Position numbers and translations under genes: made by a program. A model generated the notes under the pieces. It did no database searches and was not told where the DNA came from. It was given only the letters and a program-made list of their open reading frames with translations. A DNA stretch of 64,000 nt from a virus. Every line of letters begins with the position of its first letter. The first letter of the stretch is position 1. The DNA lies in IMG/VR virus record IMGVR_UViG_3300032240_000659, positions 64,135 through 128,134 of that record; one strand, written 5' to 3'. This document shows positions 1 through 5,519 of the stretch, in pieces.

Positions 1-517
1 CAGGTTTTTGTCCAGCCCAGTTAGCAACTATTATACTAGCCCACTTGCCTATAAGCACTGCCATTTCTCTTCGATGATATTTCTCAAAGTCATCAGCTGT
101 CGCTTGTCCTGAATCTAATAATTTTTGAGCTGCCTGCATATTATTATAATATGTCATCAAAGGTGCAACAAACATATATCCAAGATAGACATTTTTAAGT
201 TTGTTAGCCCAGTCGGCAACGTTTCCTAATGATGCTCTAATTGCGGCAACATTGGCAGCATATTTGGCATCTGCAATTTTCTTGATGGCCAGTTGTTCAG
301 CATCTGCCATTAATTTTGCATCTTGAGCTAGCTCTTTACCAACTAGACGGTTGGCTTCTTTTGCAGATAATTTTCTACCACTTGCCGCCATAGCACTAGC
401 TAGTTTCTCTATAGCTTGGGCACGATCACCTTTACCCAATAGCCATGCTCCGCCTTTAGCCAGAGCACTGCCTAAGCCCTCATTAGTAGATTCTGAAATA
501 ACATCAACAATTTTCAT
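1..517 (-). CDS. Hypothetical late protein, partial (3' end outside window), possibly a virion/internal protein
   Basis: Hand translation from ATG at 517 gives MKIVDVISESTNEGLGSALAKGGAWLLG... with no stop before base 1. AATAAATA late-promoter-like motif lies just upstream. Absent from the ORF track, probably because it has no stop in the window. Confidence 0.8.
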   Translation of the reverse strand, partial: MKIVDVISESTNEGLGSALAKGGAWLLGKGDRAQAIEKLASAMAASGRKLSAKEANRLVGKELAQDAKLMADAEQLAIKKIADAKYAANVAAIRASLGNVADWANKLKNVYLGYMFVAPLMTYYNNMQAAQKLLDSGQATADDFEKYHRREMAVLIGKWASIIVANWAGQKP

Positions 518-524
518 AGTAATG

Positions 525-532
525 TATTTATT
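525..532 (-). promoter_or_regulatory. T4-type late promoter-like motif (AATAAATA)
   Basis: Minus-strand AATAAATA 7 nt upstream of the ATG at 517; T4 late consensus is TATAAATA; a gp55 homologue is in the window. Confidence 0.6.
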
Positions 533-534
533 AA

Positions 535-981
535 AGAAGAACTTACGTTCTTCTGTTCTTCGCTTTCGCTCGAACTGTTTTCTTTCTTTTTAATGATTAT
601 TAACGCGAAGCGTTTAAGATATTATCTAGATTGTTCAGTCACACTTTGCCCAGACCGGGCAAAAATGAACATTATCTGAGTTGCACAATATCACTTAGCG
701 TTACAGCATTACAGAGGCGGTCATCCGGTACCTCGAGCTGTGTCTTTATATGACGGCGGCTTACTAACATACGCTAACATGCTAGCAAACGTGGGCTATT
801 AACCCTCTTTTTGCCTTTAACTTTCCTTTAAACAACCAAACCGCGGCAGCTTTGCGATCCTCGTCCTGTTAAGGATGGTGGTTGAGTACTCTTAGCAGCC
901 AGAGATTCCGTCCCTGCGATCCGAGATCCAGGTGTAGGGCGCACGATATTTGCTTGCGCTTGCTTATACTGCTTAAGGAGC
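535..981 (-). ncRNA. Candidate structured non-coding RNA or ssDNA hairpin element, family unassigned
   Basis: About 450 bp without a credible ORF. 601-960 is ~47% GC by hand count, above the AT-rich coding DNA. At least 8 stem-loops, one needing G-U pairs only on the minus strand, plus GNRA-type loops. Confidence 0.45.
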
Positions 982-1413
982 CTATGAATTTAATTTTTTT
1001 ATATTGGAGCCGTGGACGCGAACTTGAATATGCCCGTTGTAATAGTCGTCGCTTTCAAGAACTTTACGAGTAAATTGTTCTCTAGCTTCAACGTATGAGC
1101 ACTCTGCCTTTGATGTACAGTAAAATAATATCTCTCTTGAGAAGTTATCTTTGCCTAATGTGTCTATATCTGCCTGTAGATTAGGGCTTGATCCGTAATA
1201 TTCTTGCCAATCACTGTCAATCTTACTTCTAATCTTCTTTTTTTTCTTAGTACCGTTTTTAAGTTTTACTGTTTTATAGGTTGTTTTAGAAAATTTGGCT
1301 AGTTTCTTGCCTATATATTTGCGTCCACTGATGAGATTTGTAATGATATACACGAACCCAACGCAATCTTCCGGTAAAATTTCGACAATATTGTTTTGAT
1401 AAGTCCATGACAT
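982..1413 (-). CDS. GIY-YIG endonuclease (short, T4 endonuclease II/Seg-like)
   Basis: GFVYIITNLISGRKYIG motif and conserved E and N residues (SYVEAREQF, YYNG); 143 aa with no extra DNA-binding domain. Confidence 0.85.
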   Translation of the reverse strand: MSWTYQNNIVEILPEDCVGFVYIITNLISGRKYIGKKLAKFSKTTYKTVKLKNGTKKKKKIRSKIDSDWQEYYGSSPNLQADIDTLGKDNFSREILFYCTSKAECSYVEAREQFTRKVLESDDYYNGHIQVRVHGSNIKKLNS

Positions 1414-1416
1414 GCT

Positions 1417-1680
1417 TTAGTTAGCATCATCTGTAGCCTTTGCCTGTTGTTTTTGAGCCTGTCTTTTTGCTTCTCGCTCTGCAAGAATTATTTCTTTTTC
1501 ATCCATCCATTCGCGAATAACTACACGTCTAGCAGAACAAATTCGACGAATATCACTTAATATATGGCGCAACCGTATTGCGCTAGCTTTTGTGCCTTCG
1601 TTCATCCATGTTTGATTTTCCGCAAAGTATTTGCGAAATTCTGCTAACAGTTTATCGTGCAGGTCCTCGTCTTGATGCAT
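1417..1680 (-). CDS. Small helical protein, histone H1/Hc1-like family (tentative)
   Basis: GTKASAIRLRHILSDIRRICSARR resembles the G-x-K-x-A-x-x-R-x-R...RR pattern of this family, from recall. Confidence 0.4.
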   Translation of the reverse strand: MHQDEDLHDKLLAEFRKYFAENQTWMNEGTKASAIRLRHILSDIRRICSARRVVIREWMDEKEIILAEREAKRQAQKQQAKATDDAN

Positions 1681-1910
1681 TACTTCTTATTGTCCTTGTC
1701 TAACATAGGAGCAATTTTTTCAATTTCATGCTCATGTGCAAAACGTGCTGGCGGGTTTACATGCCAACTATCCGATGTAAAAATTCTAACTGGTTTCCAA
1801 TACTTAGAAATCATATTATTGATAGCAATGATGCCAGCAACTACTACAATAAATCCTAGCATTGTTAAAATACTTCCAGCTAAAAATACTGCCGATTGAT
1901 CCATATCCAT
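1680..1910 (-). CDS. Hypothetical single-pass membrane protein
   Basis: Hydrophobic N-terminal segment AVFLAGSILTMLGFIVVVAGIIAI; abuts neighbours in the operon. Confidence 0.65.
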   Translation of the reverse strand: MDMDQSAVFLAGSILTMLGFIVVVAGIIAINNMISKYWKPVRIFTSDSWHVNPPARFAHEHEIEKIAPMLDKDNKK

Positions 1911-3685
1911 TATTCTGTTACCTCTAAATCATTTGCGTACGAAGTAAAGCCATTTTCTTTAATAACTTTAAGTACATTGTTCACACGTCCAATTAATTCG
2001 TCTTTGTGACTAATTAAAAATACGTTCTTTTTGCGTTCACGTGCTATTTTCTTAAGCACAGCTAACGCACCTTCTACACCACTAGCGTCTAACCCGTTGT
2101 CAATAAGTTCGTCAATGAACAATAAGTTAATGCTTTGATATAAACTTTCCCATACGTCACGGAATGCCCACGACAATGATAAAATTAATCGATTACGCTC
2201 ACCTCTCGACAAGTTATCAAAGTCTAGATCCTGCCCAAGTTGCATAATTTCTACAGTTAAATCATTTAAGAATGTAACTGTGTGAGGTAATCCCATCTTG
2301 TCCAAATAGTAAGTTAGTCTATTGTTCAAGTAGGCCAAGTTTTGATCTATAATCTTCTTGCGAATAAAGCTGTCTTTAGAAGTTAACAACTTGAGCAGAA
2401 ACTCTTGATGTTCTTTTAATGTATTAAGTTCATTAACAGAATCCCAAGTAATCTCCTGCATAGCAGTATTTCTTAAATCGTCAATTTGTTCTTGATAAGG
2501 ATCTGTTTCCCCTGCTTTGATTGTTAGTTGGGTTTCTAATGTCTGTATTGTATTTTGATGTTTTAATGCTTGTTCTAAACTATCATAATATGTAGACGGG
2601 CGCCCATTAATATCACCAATAACACTTAACTCTTTGTTAATTTTGGCAAGGTCTGTTGTTACCTTGTTTAGATACTTGTTGGCTTCATCTAAATGTCCCT
2701 GTGCAGTAGCAGTCATTTCTTCATGTTTATGATCATGTAGTGCTTGTTCACAAGCATGACATGTTTTGTTTGCTAGACTTTCTAATTCTTTTGTATACTT
2801 TACAACACTTTTTTCAGCTTGCGCCATTGCGTTTTCTAAAGTAGCACGTTCTTTGTTTAAACTTTTAATTTTTGCAGATTGCTCATCATACACTTTTAGT
2901 TTTGCATGAGATTCTAACTCTGCATCTATGTCAACATTTTCAAGTTCAACAATGGCACGACCTATTTTTTCTAAATCAGTGTCGTGTTGAGTATTCCAAG
3001 CGTTTTGTCTAACAATTAATGCATCAATACTCTGTTGAATCTTCTCATTAGATTTTTTTGCAGCCTCGATATCTGCACTTTCTTGAAAAATAGAATCTTT
3101 AGTTTGTCGAATAAGTTCTTTAAGTGTTTCTGCCTTTTCAGATAATAACGTAACACCTAGCAGTTGCTCAATGATTGCACGTTGATCTGCGGCCTTCATT
3201 GACAAAAACGGCTCAGTATAAGTGTTTAATGCTATGATATGCTTGAACATATCATGACTCATACCAAGAAGTTCGTCTAAGTCTTTTTGAGTTTCTCTCA
3301 TGTCGCCCTGAGCATCGTCACTTTCTTCGGCACCTTGTTCTTCGTTGTTAACGTAAAATTCCATTATACTGGGTTTACGTCCCCTTTCAACCCGATAATC
3401 AATACCGTCTTTTTCAAACGTAAGTGTAACTAACATATTTTTATTGTTAATTTTATTGATTAGGTTATCTTTTTTAATATTAGTAAGTGCATTACCAAAC
3501 AATGCAAAACTTAATGCGTTAACAATAGTGGTTTTACCAGTACCATTACGGCTACCGCTGTCATCACCGCCTTGGTCTAAGTTCTCACCTAGTACAAGAG
3601 TTAAGTTTTCTTGGGCAAAGTTTACCGCCTGAGTTTGATTACCCACACTCATAAAGTTTTTAACTGTTAGTTCTTTTATTTTCAT
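1910..3685 (-). CDS. gp46: Recombination endonuclease ATPase subunit (gp46/SbcC/Rad50-like)
   Basis: Walker A NGTGKTT, CHAC zinc hook, signature LSRGE, Walker B LFIDE, H-loop ISH; adjacent to the gp47 homologue. Confidence 0.95.
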   Translation of the reverse strand: MKIKELTVKNFMSVGNQTQAVNFAQENLTLVLGENLDQGGDDSGSRNGTGKTTIVNALSFALFGNALTNIKKDNLINKINNKNMLVTLTFEKDGIDYRVERGRKPSIMEFYVNNEEQGAEESDDAQGDMRETQKDLDELLGMSHDMFKHIIALNTYTEPFLSMKAADQRAIIEQLLGVTLLSEKAETLKELIRQTKDSIFQESADIEAAKKSNEKIQQSIDALIVRQNAWNTQHDTDLEKIGRAIVELENVDIDAELESHAKLKVYDEQSAKIKSLNKERATLENAMAQAEKSVVKYTKELESLANKTCHACEQALHDHKHEEMTATAQGHLDEANKYLNKVTTDLAKINKELSVIGDINGRPSTYYDSLEQALKHQNTIQTLETQLTIKAGETDPYQEQIDDLRNTAMQEITWDSVNELNTLKEHQEFLLKLLTSKDSFIRKKIIDQNLAYLNNRLTYYLDKMGLPHTVTFLNDLTVEIMQLGQDLDFDNLSRGERNRLILSLSWAFRDVWESLYQSINLLFIDELIDNGLDASGVEGALAVLKKIARERKKNVFLISHKDELIGRVNNVLKVIKENGFTSYANDLEVTE

Positions 3686-4695
3686 AGGCTATTATAAATT
3701 GCAAGTAGTGTATTCTTGTCAAATTGTTCAGAGTCGATGTTTATAATCTGACTTGATACAATTTGATCTACACTTTCAAATGCTTGAATATCAATATTTG
3801 TATTAATTTCAACTTCTTTGCGTTCTGTGATTAAAGTAAGTTCTCTAATATCATAATCGGCAATAAACTTTTCTTTAATAAAACTTGCTTCTTCGTATGT
3901 AATGTCAATGTCTAGTGTAACACGTAGATGTTGCTTGGGTTTAATTAAAGTATCAGCTTCGTCAATGAGTTGGCTTAATTTTACTGTACGGAAAGTTGGC
4001 TGAGCCGGCCAAGAATGATATTCTGGAACTCCACCCCACTCTAATATCATCATACCTCGTTCATCGTCCCACGTATCTGCATAGTTGTGAGGAAACGCAT
4101 TGCCAATATAGATCATATTGCCTTTTTGCTGACGCTTGTGAAAGTGTCCGCTAAACCCAAGCTCATATGATTTAAAACTTTCTAAATTAATTTCTCCATG
4201 ATCCGGCATTTGAACCATAGCGTTCATAAAGAAGTTAGGTAATTCAAAGTGACCAAAGATATACTTGCCGCCTTTTTTGCCTACAGTCTTCCATTCGTCG
4301 CCAACCAGCCACGGGCATAGCGTAACGTTACCAATAGTAGTAGGCTCGTGTACAACTGTAATGCCAGGAATATACTTGCCAAACTCAACAGAGTGAATAT
4401 CTCGTTTATCTTTATAATATAAATCATGGTTGCCAGGAAAAAAGTAAAAATTATTGAAGGCTTTACCCAACTTTTCCAGGGCCCTAAGGCTATAGTCCAT
4501 TGTAGTGATATTAAGACTATTGCGGTTGTGATGCCAATCACCCATAAAAATTCCTGTGTCACAGCCTTCCTCCTTGGCTTTGGCAATGTACCAATCTACA
4601 AAATCTTCACAGTCTTTGTTGTGAACACTACTATTTGACTTTAAGCCAAAGTGAATGTCTGTAAAACAGGCAACTTTTTTAAACAAATTTGTCAT
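3682..4695 (-). CDS. gp47: Recombination endonuclease nuclease subunit (gp47/SbcD/Mre11-like)
   Basis: Metallophosphoesterase motifs DIHFG, GDWHH, GNHD, GHFE, SGHFH. Confidence 0.95.
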   Translation of the reverse strand: MTNLFKKVACFTDIHFGLKSNSSVHNKDCEDFVDWYIAKAKEEGCDTGIFMGDWHHNRNSLNITTMDYSLRALEKLGKAFNNFYFFPGNHDLYYKDKRDIHSVEFGKYIPGITVVHEPTTIGNVTLCPWLVGDEWKTVGKKGGKYIFGHFELPNFFMNAMVQMPDHGEINLESFKSYELGFSGHFHKRQQKGNMIYIGNAFPHNYADTWDDERGMMILEWGGVPEYHSWPAQPTFRTVKLSQLIDEADTLIKPKQHLRVTLDIDITYEEASFIKEKFIADYDIRELTLITERKEVEINTNIDIQAFESVDQIVSSQIINIDSEQFDKNTLLAIYNSL

Positions 4696-5519
4696 TCTTG
4701 AGTCTCGTCAAAACGTTTCATAGCATTTGCGTGTTCACCTGCCCCGGTTCTGCTATAACTTGGATTCATACCGTTAATTTCTAAAATATCATCGCGGATA
4801 TTTTGATTACGTTTTTCAATATTAATAACACGAACAAAGCTATTAGTCACAGCCGCAGTAAAATAAGCAAACGGATTGTCTGACTTGCTTTCGTCAAATT
4901 GTAAACCGATCTGTGCTAACTGTAAAATGGCTTGACCCTTCATTTCGTCATTATAAGTGTATCCGCGAACGTTACCGCGTGTAGCATATCGCTCACACAA
5001 CTTAATCATCATGCGGGCTAATGTTGGTGTAATTTGTCCAGCATCTTTATCAAAGTAACCTGTTTCTAAGTCACCCTTCCAGTGCGATTTTCCAACACAT
5101 ACAAGTTCATCTTCTTCATTAAACTTCCAATGCTGAAATGGTGGAAAGTTAACTTTGTCTCTATGATCTGCTAGACTTTTAGGGTTTTTCTTACGTGTAT
5201 TGTTAAGTGGAATGTGATCAAATGTCATAATCCTAAACACTAAATCTGTTTTAGGAATCTTTTTGTAATCAACTTCACAATCAGCCTGTTTGACCTTTGC
5301 ACCAGCGGCTTTTCTACGTTGGTAATCTTCATCACCTAGTCTTTTTGCCTGTGCTCGTTTAGCTTCTGCAATAGTTCTAATGTTAATCTTTTCTAAGTTA
5401 GGGAGAATAATGTCATATTGATGGTATTTTGGATCTGTAAAACTACAATATGTGCTTTTACTTCTGTGTATCTCCGCTAACATGTCTTTGTTATTCAAAT
5501 AATTTACTTTTATTGTCAT
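4692..5519 (-). CDS. gp55: Late-transcription sigma factor (gp55-like)
   Basis: N-terminal YLNNKDML, RGYTYNDEM, FDESKSDNPFAYFT match the gp55 pattern; T4-like order 55-47-46. Confidence 0.85.
   Translation of the reverse strand: MTIKVNYLNNKDMLAEIHRSKSTYCSFTDPKYHQYDIILPNLEKINIRTIAEAKRAQAKRLGDEDYQRRKAAGAKVKQADCEVDYKKIPKTDLVFRIMTFDHIPLNNTRKKNPKSLADHRDKVNFPPFQHWKFNEEDELVCVGKSHWKGDLETGYFDKDAGQITPTLARMMIKLCERYATRGNVRGYTYNDEMKGQAILQLAQIGLQFDESKSDNPFAYFTAAVTNSFVRVINIEKRNQNIRDDILEINGMNPSYSRTGAGEHANAMKRFDETQE

What the first reader, a model, noticed from the sequence alone, without database searches (positions are those of the whole stretch)
535..981. About 450-bp GC-enriched, multi-hairpin non-coding element after the GIY-YIG nuclease
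Seen: no credible ORF, and ~47% GC in 601-960 by hand count. Stems at 913-932, 864-875 (enclosed by CAACCA/TGGTTG, 879-884/833-838), 793-805, 714-734 and 645-663. A 10-bp stem (779-788 with 761-770) needs two G-U pairs that form only in minus-strand RNA. GGATCGCA is directly repeated (853-860, 915-922). It starts right after the nuclease stop codon. Inference: an unclassified large structured ncRNA, possibly a partner of the compact 143-aa nuclease, or a replication/packaging signal. I could not match it to tRNA, tmRNA, RNase P or a group I intron.
Basis: partly seen in the sequence, partly recalled or inferred. Interest (0 to 1): 0.72.

Follow-up and report, generated by a model that had tools for sequence, protein, structure and literature searches.

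The report
Extended Polynucleobacter-1 twin-box phage RNA
The gene-free 450 bases behind a small nuclease gene of this uncultured giant T4-like freshwater phage encode a real, multiply knotted non-coding RNA: its first third is the catalogued but unexplained Polynucleobacter-1 motif, and its uncatalogued rest carries the same 7-letter word twice for a reader that is still unknown.

Summary

The RNA is not unclassified. Window 964-830 (minus strand) is a full-length match to Rfam RF01718, the Polynucleobacter-1 RNA (106 bits, cut-off 37). This is an orphan motif from 2010, already noted to lie downstream of this same gene family. I show that family to be a domain-only GIY-YIG nuclease.

The Rfam model stops at window 830, but the conserved RNA runs on to 535. 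Its 3' part holds two 'boxes', A-CUC-X and A-UCU-X, flanking a hairpin. The 7-nt word X differs between phages but is identical in both boxes (134 of 160 phage loci by exact match). It has no complementary partner in the RNA.

Related phages swap the 5' domain but keep this 3' module. Freshwater Burkholderiales chromosomes carry the same RNA, twin boxes included, without any GIY-YIG gene. The nuclease is therefore more likely a fixed neighbour than an obligate partner.

Function is unknown. My preferred mechanism, at low confidence, is that box 1 pairs with the complement of box 2.

This scan has already found the same RNA in other genomes.

The parts
532..981 (-). Whole conserved structured RNA, about 450 nt. 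RNA position 1 = window 981, so window = 982 - position.
   Evidence: blastn of 518-981 hits 54 of 80 related loci directly after the GIY-YIG stop, at 66-87% identity over up to all 464 nt. Conservation in alignment A1 ends at the P14 hairpin. 18 helices are supported by covariation.
830..964 (-). 5' domain = Rfam RF01718 Polynucleobacter-1 RNA (helices P1-P6)
   Evidence: 106 bits against a gathering score of 37, E 2.8e-23, model positions 1-141 of 141. It is the only Rfam hit above threshold in the 64-kb window.
895..972 (-). Pseudoknot PK1: the 5' leader GCAGU (968-972) pairs with the P3 loop GCUGC (895-899)
   Evidence: 4 of 5 pairs change on both sides (for example GC 18, AU 16, GU 6, UA 5); 86% of cells are paired. 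Not in the Rfam structure line.
761..788 (-). P8, long hairpin (779-788/761-770) with the conserved loop UUAGCGUA
Evidence: All 11 pairs change on both sides.
696..776 (-). Pseudoknot PK2: the P8 loop UAGCGU (771-776) pairs with ACGCUA (696-701)
   Evidence: 6 pairs, all changing on both sides; 88-96% of cells are paired.
703..754 (-). P10 (737-741/703-707) and P11 (730-734/714-718), plus pseudoknot PK3: GUCAU (750-754) pairs with AUGAC (720-724) in the P11 loop. Holds the invariant GGUAC..ACCGCC.
   Evidence: P10 changes on both sides in 5 of 5 pairs. PK3 shows UA 41/CG 10 and GC 43/AU 7. Invariant columns are listed.
671..681 (-). Box 1: A-CUC-X, with X = AGAUAAU (671-677)
   Evidence: X is identical to box 2 in 50 of 52 aligned sequences. 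Mutual information with the box 2 columns is 0.97-1.23 bit, against 0.25-0.7 for the next best partner.
644..664 (-). P12, a G+C-rich hairpin between the boxes, followed by the near-invariant AAGUGUGAC
   Evidence: 8 pairs, 95% paired, 3 changing on both sides. Classes B and C and the bacterial copies have a different hairpin sequence at the same place.
621..631 (-). Box 2: A-UCU-X, with X = AGAUAAU (621-627)
   Evidence: As for box 2's twin. An exact CTC-X7...TCT-X7 pair is found in 134 of 160 phage loci, against 6 of 160 shuffled loci.
535..569 (-). 3' end: P13 (a 2-bp stem with a GNRA-type loop, flanked by tandem G.A/A.G pairs, 562-569) and the P14 terminal hairpin (547-554/535-542), followed by UUUAAUAAAUA
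   Evidence: P14 changes on both sides in 7 of 8 pairs. Tandem GA columns read GA 49/52 and AG 46/52. P14 does not meet the terminator scan's criteria, so 'terminator' is an inference.
982..1413 (-). Upstream neighbour: 143-aa GIY-YIG protein with the catalytic domain only
   Evidence: Pfam PF19835 SegE_GIY-YIG, E 1.6e-32, residues 3-129. PHROG 447, mislabelled 'NAD synthetase'. 40% identical to P-SSM2 PSSM2_218.

Best explanation
Window 981-532 (minus strand) encodes the full-length form of the Polynucleobacter-1 RNA. It is an autonomous, roughly 450-nt non-coding RNA with three parts.
1. A 5' domain, which is the Rfam motif.
2. A middle domain locked by two pseudoknots around the invariant GGUAC..ACCGCC.
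3. A 3' 'twin-box' module: box 1 (A-CUC-X), a hairpin, AAGUGUGAC, box 2 (A-UCU-X), then two small hairpins.

Shown:
- The fold is under selection at the RNA level.
- The 3' module is the part kept when related phages swap the 5' domain.
- The same RNA, twin boxes included, exists in freshwater Burkholderiales chromosomes without the nuclease.
- X must be the same in both boxes.

Inferred:
- In the phage it is made as the tail of the gp47-gp46-GIY-YIG transcript. No promoter of its own was found, and the stop codon abuts the 5' leader.
- It ends at or near the P14 hairpin.
- It acts through its fold, independently of the nuclease. The nuclease is a fixed, possibly homing-type, neighbour of a conserved RNA gene.

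Mechanism I commit to (about 1 chance in 5): the identity rule is hidden Watson-Crick covariation. RNA box 1 has to pair with the complement of box 2. That complement is most simply the template DNA strand exposed about 50 nt downstream, just after the P12 hairpin has formed; an antisense transcript is the alternative. The RNA would then capture its own template and hold an R-loop. ColE1 RNA II works this way: an upstream RNA segment pairs with downstream template DNA to make the persistent primer hybrid (from my own knowledge of Masukata and Tomizawa 1990, not re-read here). Such a hybrid could prime or mark DNA replication or recombination in a T4-like phage or in an excised island.

My odds for the steps: member of RF01718, 0.97; functions as folded RNA, 0.9; does not need the nuclease, 0.6; R-loop or re-pairing mechanism, 0.15-0.2.
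For: - Rfam: 106 bits, full length.
- Covariation: 18 helices, 67 of 92 pairs with double-sided changes.
- Loci that lack an RF01718 hit still carry GGUACCGG..ACCGCC, box 1, a hairpin, box 2, P13 and P14 behind two other 5' domains (classes B and C).
- RF01718 scores 64-104 bits in chromosomes of Limnohabitans, Polynucleobacter and relatives. There is no GIY-YIG there, and the upstream gene (DUF6641) is divergent, so the RNA must have its own promoter.
- The bacterial copies keep twin boxes with X = AGCGAAA(G), AUCGAAA(G) or AUCAAAA(G), the same in both boxes.
- The identity rule is strict. Columns 427/493 read AA 26, GG 26, mixed 0. Close relatives differ in both boxes at once. Columns between the boxes are not linked to X.
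- No partner in cis. No fixed-place complement lies within 3-7 kb, and a swap test gives -0.24 +/- 0.85 kcal/mol.
- A separately encoded partner would need three or four coordinated changes per switch. A wobble-tolerant partner or a protein would not force identity. Pairing with the other box's complement needs only the two changes observed (inference).
- No conserved promoter lies upstream of the RNA in the phages.
- The boxes are somewhat more accessible than average: unpaired probability 0.51 and 0.50 against 0.41.
Against: - There is no expression data.
- Nothing shows an RNA:DNA hybrid.
- The RNA downstream of box 2 (P13, P14) is itself under structural selection. A pure primer model does not predict that.
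- The conserved CUC/UCU difference would put a 3-nt mismatch into the proposed hybrid.
- The GIY-YIG to RNA adjacency survives although genes on both sides vary. That is more than plain synteny and keeps a functional link to the nuclease alive.
- The cumulative GC-skew minimum of the 128-kb fragment lies about 3.5 kb away, at the strand switch, so it says nothing about an origin.
Confidence: 0.55

Rival explanations
1. Nuclease-RNA system. The domain-only GIY-YIG protein has no DNA-binding domain of its own. It would use the RNA as scaffold, regulator or short bivalent guide, with the twin boxes pairing with the two strands of an inverted-repeat target. In bacterial islands another DNA enzyme would take the nuclease's place.
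For: - Linkage is complete in this clade: 62 of 69 loci have twin boxes within 700 nt of the stop codon and 5 more within 2.5 kb. The last 2 carry the RNA by blastn or Rfam. 77 of 80 RNA-seeded loci have the gene upstream on the same strand.
- The adjacency persists while the ORFs between gp46 and GIY-YIG and the downstream genes vary.
- Pfam covers residues 3-129 of 143, so there is no extra domain.
- Several bacterial copies have a short tyrosine recombinase downstream on the same strand.
Against: - 516 cultured-phage records encode relatives of the nuclease. The five checked, including the closest (Melnitz, 52% identity), have no such RNA.
- The bacterial RNAs have no GIY-YIG neighbour, and many have no recombinase nearby.
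- X is only 7-9 nt with few variants, which is too short for a DNA guide.
- X and its complement occur at chance frequency in the 128 kb of this genome. The only close pair is the boxes themselves.
- One locus, L138, has the RNA without the gene.
Confidence: 0.15
2. A trans-acting RNA read by one outside partner. A dimeric protein, or two copies or two sites of another RNA, would bind both boxes, with the large fold serving as scaffold or decoy in phage-host-island conflict.
For: - The RNA is shared by lytic phages and by islands of their likely hosts that also hold ThsB-TIR, AAA, integrase and IS genes.
- The boxes are more accessible than average.
- There is no partner in cis.
Against: - A protein, or a U-rich wobble partner, would not force the two boxes to stay identical.
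- A sequence-specific partner would have to change together with both boxes. Yet X switches between close relatives independently of everything else in the locus.
- No candidate was found within 3-7 kb.
Confidence: 0.15
3. A cis-acting 3' UTR element. It would stabilise or terminate the GIY-YIG mRNA, or control the flanking genes, as Weinberg's table guessed ('cis-regulatory: y').
For: It sits directly after the stop codon, has no promoter of its own and ends in a hairpin. In some relatives the stop codon overlaps the PK1 strand.
Against: - About 450 nt with four pseudoknots is far more than a 3' end needs.
- The downstream gene is not conserved and is often on the other strand.
- In bacteria the RNA is a separate transcription unit, divergent from its neighbour.
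Confidence: 0.08
4. Self-processing or re-alignment at the boxes. A ribozyme, a nuclease, or polymerase or ribosome 'hopping' would use the two identical words to excise or skip the roughly 50-nt hairpin segment. Analogies are the matched take-off and landing sites of T4 gene 60 and the identical core sequences of discontinuous viral transcription.
For: The architecture fits: identical words 47-63 nt apart flanking a stable hairpin. The product would be the same wherever the joint falls inside X.
Against: - No conserved ORF crosses box 1, and the spacing between boxes has no fixed reading frame.
- The bacterial and some phage X words are not 'codon plus stop'.
- No Rfam ribozyme family matches.
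- No internal guide covaries with X.
Confidence: 0.07

Closest known systems
Polynucleobacter-1 RNA motif (Rfam RF01718; Weinberg et al. 2010, Genome Biol 11:R31, PMC2864571)
   Same: Full-length match to the covariance model (106 bits). It has the same upstream gene family (GOS11034, related to PSSM2_218) and the same freshwater/Burkholderiales setting. The 2010 raw alignment already carried a 3' 'tail' with extra hairpins and a pseudoknot.
   Different: The Rfam model covers only 141 nt; here about 450 nt are conserved. The paper found no copy in any sequenced purified phage, whereas this copy lies on a T4-like IMG/VR contig. I found no description in that paper or its supplement of the upstream gene as a GIY-YIG nuclease, of PK1, of the twin boxes, or of the 5'-domain swaps.
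cow-rumen-2 RNA (Rfam RF02947)
   Same: A weak match over window 686-790, the middle domain (22.7 bits, E 0.4). One of five relatives gives 17.9 bits at the same place. Shared features are a hairpin with a UUAGC loop, GCCGCC, and a hairpin loop containing GGAUGACC.
   Different: The score is far below the gathering score of 66, and the outer helix of that model is not kept here. This is a lead, not a membership.
ColE1 RNA II replication primer (from my own knowledge, not re-read here)
   Same: A long, elaborately folded RNA in which an upstream segment must pair with template DNA further downstream, so the transcript carries the same short sequence twice. It needs no element-encoded initiator protein.
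   Different: No sequence or structural homology. No RNA I-like antisense partner is seen, and no hybrid, RNase H site or origin activity is shown. The RNA beyond box 2 is also structured.
Structured RNAs encoded beside mobile-element nucleases and recombinases (HEARO/IscB omega RNA, TnpB omega RNA, IS110 bridge RNA; from my own knowledge)
   Same: A large conserved RNA directly adjacent to a compact DNA enzyme, in phages and islands. It is one of the Weinberg-type orphan motifs.
   Different: Those RNAs end in a long variable guide, and the enzyme never occurs without the RNA. Here the variable word is 7-9 nt and duplicated. The nuclease family is common without the RNA, and the RNA occurs without the nuclease.
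T4 gene 60 translational bypass and mitochondrial 'byp' elements (from my own knowledge)
   Same: Matched short sequences about 50 nt apart, flanking a stable hairpin, in a T4-type phage.
   Different: No ORF runs through the boxes, 7-9 nt of identity is more than a codon, and the feature is conserved in non-coding bacterial copies.

Membership tests
Rfam RF01718 Polynucleobacter-1 RNA | Covariance-model score at or above the curated gathering score, over the whole model | tested here: met
   106 bits against 37, model positions 1-141 of 141, E 2.8e-23, minus strand. It is the only gathering-level hit in the window and in the 128-kb record.
Rfam RF01718 Polynucleobacter-1 RNA | Helices of the motif kept by compensatory changes in homologues | tested here: met
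   P1 changes on both sides in 5 of 5 pairs, P3 in 5 of 5, P6 in 4 of 6, P2 in 3 of 7 and P4 in 2 of 6, across 52 sequences.
Rfam RF01718 Polynucleobacter-1 RNA | Position downstream of a GOS11034 / PSSM2_218-like gene (Weinberg supplement) | tested here: met
   The upstream 143-aa protein is 40% identical to PSSM2_218, E 2e-20.
Rfam RF01718 Polynucleobacter-1 RNA | 3' 'tail' with further hairpins and a pseudoknot, as in the original alignment | tested here: met
   P7, P8, P10, P11, PK2 and PK3 are supported. The truncated GOS sequences printed in the supplement align by eye with window 830-700.
RNA-guided or RNA-dependent nuclease system (omega-RNA-like) | Nuclease and RNA occur together across the whole protein family | tested here: not met
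   They occur together in this clade. The five cultured-phage relatives checked have no RNA, and the bacterial RNAs have no GIY-YIG gene.
RNA-guided or RNA-dependent nuclease system (omega-RNA-like) | A variable guide segment long enough to specify a target, with matching targets | tested here: not met
   The only variable single-stranded word is 7-9 nt. There are about 13 variants in phages and 3 in bacteria. No enrichment or paired target sites appear in the 128-kb genome.
Group I intron with an inserted GIY-YIG gene | Intron core (P3-P9) recognised, with split exons on both sides | tested here: not met
   No group I hit even at E up to 10. The upstream ORF ends 4 nt before the GIY-YIG start, and the downstream gene has its own start codon and is not conserved.
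tRNA / tmRNA | Detected by ARAGORN | tested here: not met
   No tRNA or tmRNA genes in the 64-kb window.
Intrinsic terminator (for P14) | G+C-rich hairpin followed by a run of U | tested here: inconclusive
   P14 has 8 bp with strong covariation but only 3 G-C pairs. Its tail is UUUAAUAAAU, and the consensus scan does not call it.
ColE1-type RNA-primed origin | Persistent RNA:DNA hybrid, RNase H processing and origin activity | not testable with these tools
   Only the formal analogy is available: the same word twice in one transcript. GC skew is uninformative.

The most novel reading that the evidence does not exclude
The twin boxes are a new kind of RNA device that works by identity. Box 1 of the transcript re-pairs with the complement of box 2, either the template DNA strand or an antisense RNA. 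This would lock an R-loop that primes or marks replication or recombination, or would recruit the DNA-cutting or DNA-joining enzyme encoded next to it. The device would be shared by giant T4-like phages and by genomic islands of their Burkholderiales hosts.
Probability: 0.12. Interest if true: 0.85.

Novelty: new member of a known kind. Interest (0 to 1): 0.5.

Why it matters
Polynucleobacter-1 has been an orphan motif since 2010. This locus and its relatives show four things:
- The catalogued 141 nt are only the exchangeable front end of a roughly 450-nt RNA.
- The conserved core is an uncatalogued 3' module with a rule not seen in ordinary RNA covariation: two segments must be identical, not complementary.
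- The gene it follows is a minimal GIY-YIG nuclease.
- The RNA is shared between lytic giant phages and chromosomal islands of culturable freshwater bacteria (Limnohabitans sp. Bal53, Polynucleobacter rarus).

The last point makes the question testable at the bench. If the identity rule reflects RNA pairing with its own downstream template, or a bivalent guide, it would be a new mechanism. If not, this is still one of the most ornate phage RNAs without a function.

Tried and rejected
- blastn of 400-1500 against 50,697 cultured-phage records gave no match.
- tRNA/tmRNA and group I intron or any other Rfam family: none.
- Coding potential: only 32- and 38-aa ORFs, which are not conserved.
- Whole-region RNAalifold gave only a partial fold. 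I rebuilt the helices from mutual information instead.
- Box 1 pairing with box 2 (AGAU with AUCU) fails for the GCAU, GAAU and ACAU variants.
- Pairing of the boxes with UUGUUUGA (RNA positions 147-154) involves only wobble-tolerated changes and is broken in L050.
- A covarying partner in cis: none by mutual information, by exact-complement search or by swap test.
- 'Codon plus stop' or hopping: this fits most phage X words but not L158, L138 or the bacterial words, and no ORF or fixed frame is present.
- Gene conversion or a target-site duplication from a mobile hairpin: rejected, because the CUC/UCU difference inside the repeat and the differing hairpins are stably kept, and the columns between the boxes are unlinked to X.
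- Promoter reading of the boxes: the spacing is wrong (and inspection).
- Own promoter for the RNA: none is conserved.
- Targets of X in the 128-kb genome: chance level.
- The small phage ORF p87 against DUF6641: no similarity. DUF6641 is not found in this phage.
- The DUF6641 model (pLDDT 86.7) has no fold match in the PDB. PADLOC gave nothing useful.
- GC skew is uninformative.

Full report
**What is at the coordinates.** All genes in window 1-4700 lie on the minus strand. Reading along that strand they are a gp47-like phosphoesterase (4695-3682), a gp46-like SMC/AAA protein (3685-1910), two small ORFs, a 143-aa GIY-YIG protein (1413-982), a 464-nt gap (981-518), and a 304-aa ORF starting at 517. 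The window is the second half of a 128,134-base IMG/VR virus record that CheckV puts at 35% complete, so it comes from a giant T4-like phage. The gap has no credible ORF. It is richer in G+C than its flanks: 0.44-0.475 against 0.32-0.37.

**Known family.** An Rfam scan puts a full-length Polynucleobacter-1 RNA (RF01718) at 964-830 on the minus strand: 106 bits against a cut-off of 37, E 2.8e-23. It is the only gathering-level hit in the window and in the whole record. The library holds a single paper naming this motif. Its table lists the motif as a likely RNA, possibly cis-regulatory, from Burkholderiales and fresh water. Its supplement says most copies lie downstream of GOS11034 genes 'with possible homology to PSSM2_218 in cyanophage P-SSM2', that the 3' half is not always detected, and that no copy was found in a sequenced purified phage. 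PSSM2_218, annotated 'NAD synthetase', is 40% identical to the window's GIY-YIG protein, E 2e-20. Pfam covers residues 3-129 of that protein with the SegE GIY-YIG catalytic domain, and nothing else matches. The gene association was therefore already known. That the gene is a domain-only nuclease is not stated in the paper or the supplement passages I read.

**The RNA is three times longer than the motif.** More than 586 IMG/VR loci encode close relatives of the nuclease, and the best 80 are 71-86% identical. Nearly all lie downstream of gp46 on the same strand, with variable small ORFs in between and unrelated genes after the gap. blastn with 518-981 hits 54 of the 80 directly after the stop codon, at 66-87% identity and over up to all 464 nt.

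I aligned 52 non-redundant sequences (A1) and derived helices from mutual information. The resulting structure has 92 pairs in 18 helices, with these statistics:
- 94.3% of cells are paired, against 34-42% when partners are slid.
- 67 pairs have changes on both sides.
- 0 of 500 shuffles reach the observed values.

There are four pseudoknots: the 5' leader with the P3 loop, a 2-bp one inside P1, the P8 loop with ACGCUA 70 nt downstream, and GUCAU with the P11 loop. Caveat: the structure and the counts come from the same alignment.

The minus strand folds better than shuffles (z = -1.99). The plus strand does not (z = -0.87).

**Twin boxes.** Two segments flank the P12 hairpin: A-CUC-X (window 681-671) and A-UCU-X (631-621). 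Here X is AGAUAAU. Among relatives X takes at least 13 forms (GGAUGAU, GCAUAAU, AGAUGAA, ACAUGAA and others), yet it is the same in both boxes.
- X is identical in 50 of 52 aligned sequences.
- An exact pair is found in 134 of 160 phage loci, against 6 of 160 shuffled loci.
- The variable X columns share 0.97-1.23 bit with their twins and at most 0.25-0.7 bit with any other column. That includes the columns between the boxes.
- Closest relatives differ in both boxes at once, for example L089 and L121, which are 91% identical elsewhere.

I found no complement of X at a fixed place within 3-7 kb. No partner in the RNA covaries with X (swap test). In this genome's 128 kb the X 7-mer occurs at chance frequency. 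Box-to-box pairing fails for several variants. The stable CUC/UCU difference inside the repeat argues against homogenisation by conversion.

**The 3' module is the core.** Twenty loci were scanned with Rfam and only two had RF01718. The others nevertheless carry a gap of about 400 nt after the nuclease gene. That gap holds GGUACCGG..ACCGCC (class B), box 1, a hairpin, box 2, P13 and P14, behind two unrelated 5' domains (classes B and C). With these included, all 69 nuclease loci with enough flank have the RNA. Sixty-two have twin boxes within 700 nt of the stop codon, five have an ORF inserted in between, and two have boxes with a different prefix. Conversely, an RNA-seeded scan found the nuclease upstream in 77 of 80 loci. 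Two of the three exceptions are cut by the contig end, and one (L138) lacks the gene.

**The partnership is not obligate.** The nuclease has relatives in 516 cultured-phage records, mostly cyanophages. I checked the closest (Methylophilales phage Melnitz, 52% identity) and four others, and none has such an RNA.

The same RNA also occurs in bacterial chromosomes. RF01718 scores 64-104 bits in Limnohabitans sp. Bal53 (two copies), Polynucleobacter rarus, P. meluiroseus, and several Burkholderiaceae, Oxalobacteraceae and Comamonadaceae genomes. These copies have no GIY-YIG gene nearby. In 15 of 16 further loci checked, as in the reference locus L222, a divergent DUF6641 gene lies upstream. There is often a short tyrosine recombinase downstream, with ThsB-TIR, AAA and IS genes around. 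The bacterial copies keep twin boxes (GAACUC-X ... hairpin ... GAAUCU-X) with X = AGCGAAA(G), AUCGAAA(G) or AUCAAAA(G), again identical in both boxes.

**How it probably works.**

Shown: a folded RNA is selected, the twin-box module is its conserved core, and X obeys an identity rule.

Inferred:
- In the phage it is the tail of the GIY-YIG transcript. No conserved promoter lies upstream, and the stop codon abuts the PK1 strand.
- It ends near P14, which covaries strongly but is not a textbook terminator.

The identity rule needs explaining. A protein or a wobble-tolerant partner would not force identity. A separately encoded specific partner would need three or more coordinated changes per switch. 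The most economical explanation is hidden Watson-Crick covariation, in which RNA box 1 pairs with the complement of box 2. That complement could be the template DNA about 50 nt downstream or an antisense RNA, much as ColE1 RNA II captures its template (from my own knowledge). I give this about 0.15-0.2.

The rivals are a nuclease-RNA system (0.15), one outside reader of both boxes (0.15), a 3' UTR element (0.08), and processing or hopping at the boxes (0.07).

**Limits.** No expression data could be obtained. All phage relatives are uncultured. The DUF6641 model gave no fold match.

This scan has reported the same 'twin-box' RNA on other genomes. I reached the same reading before looking those reports up.

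Noticed in passing
window 686-790 (minus): A weak match to Rfam cow-rumen-2 (RF02947): 22.7 bits, E 0.4, against a gathering score of 66. It covers the middle domain and shares a UUAGC hairpin loop, GCCGCC, and a GGAUGACC loop. One of five relatives gave 17.9 bits at the same place. The two motifs may share a module.
   Followed up: partly
L062, L074, L065, L037, L072, L056, L040, L084 (class B) and L007, L081, L076, L071 (class C), about 3430-3900: Behind the same nuclease gene, these related phages carry RNAs with two other 5' domains that no Rfam model recognises. Both are joined to the same twin-box 3' module. In class C, X = ACAUGAA.
   Followed up: partly
L222, L255, L254, L259, L231 and other bacterial loci: In freshwater Burkholderiales chromosomes the RNA stands next to a divergent DUF6641 gene (PF20346) and an unassigned ORF of about 110-140 aa. 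A tyrosine recombinase of about 190 aa often lies downstream. The DUF6641 AlphaFold model (pLDDT 86.7) has no PDB fold match.
   Followed up: partly
window 863 and 875 (alignment A1 columns 128 and 140): Non-Watson-Crick covariation beside P5: U/C in 28 sequences and C/U in 23. It looks like a register shift or a non-canonical pair.
   Followed up: no
window 562-573: P13 is a 2-bp G-C stem with a GNRA-type loop, flanked by near-invariant tandem G.A/A.G pairs (GA 49/52, AG 46/52). This may be a protein- or RNA-docking motif.
   Followed up: no
window 1417-1680 (minus): An 87-aa ORF between gp46 and the nuclease is kept in many relatives at 31-68% identity. It has no Pfam or PHROG match.
   Followed up: no
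window 517-535: AAUAAAUA, which resembles a late promoter, lies directly after P14 and 7 nt before the ATG of the 304-aa downstream gene. About 20 of the 52 relatives have a same-strand gene starting ATGAAA here. The rest have unrelated or convergent genes.
   Followed up: partly
L224 (OZ248542.1, 454-kb replicon) and L226 (699-kb contig): In two isolate assemblies the RNA lies within 2 kb of the end of a secondary replicon or contig. This could be chance, an assembly break at a repeated island, or a start-point convention.
   Followed up: no
L058, L091, L104, L113, L116, L120, L123, L160: Insertions of 0.9-1.9 kb separate the nuclease gene from the RNA. In L058 the insert is a 341-aa ORF.
   Followed up: no
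L212 2096-2212: An ALIL pseudoknot (the IS3 frameshift element, 98.9 bits) lies about 0.9 kb from the bacterial RNA copy. An IS element has inserted beside it.
   Followed up: no
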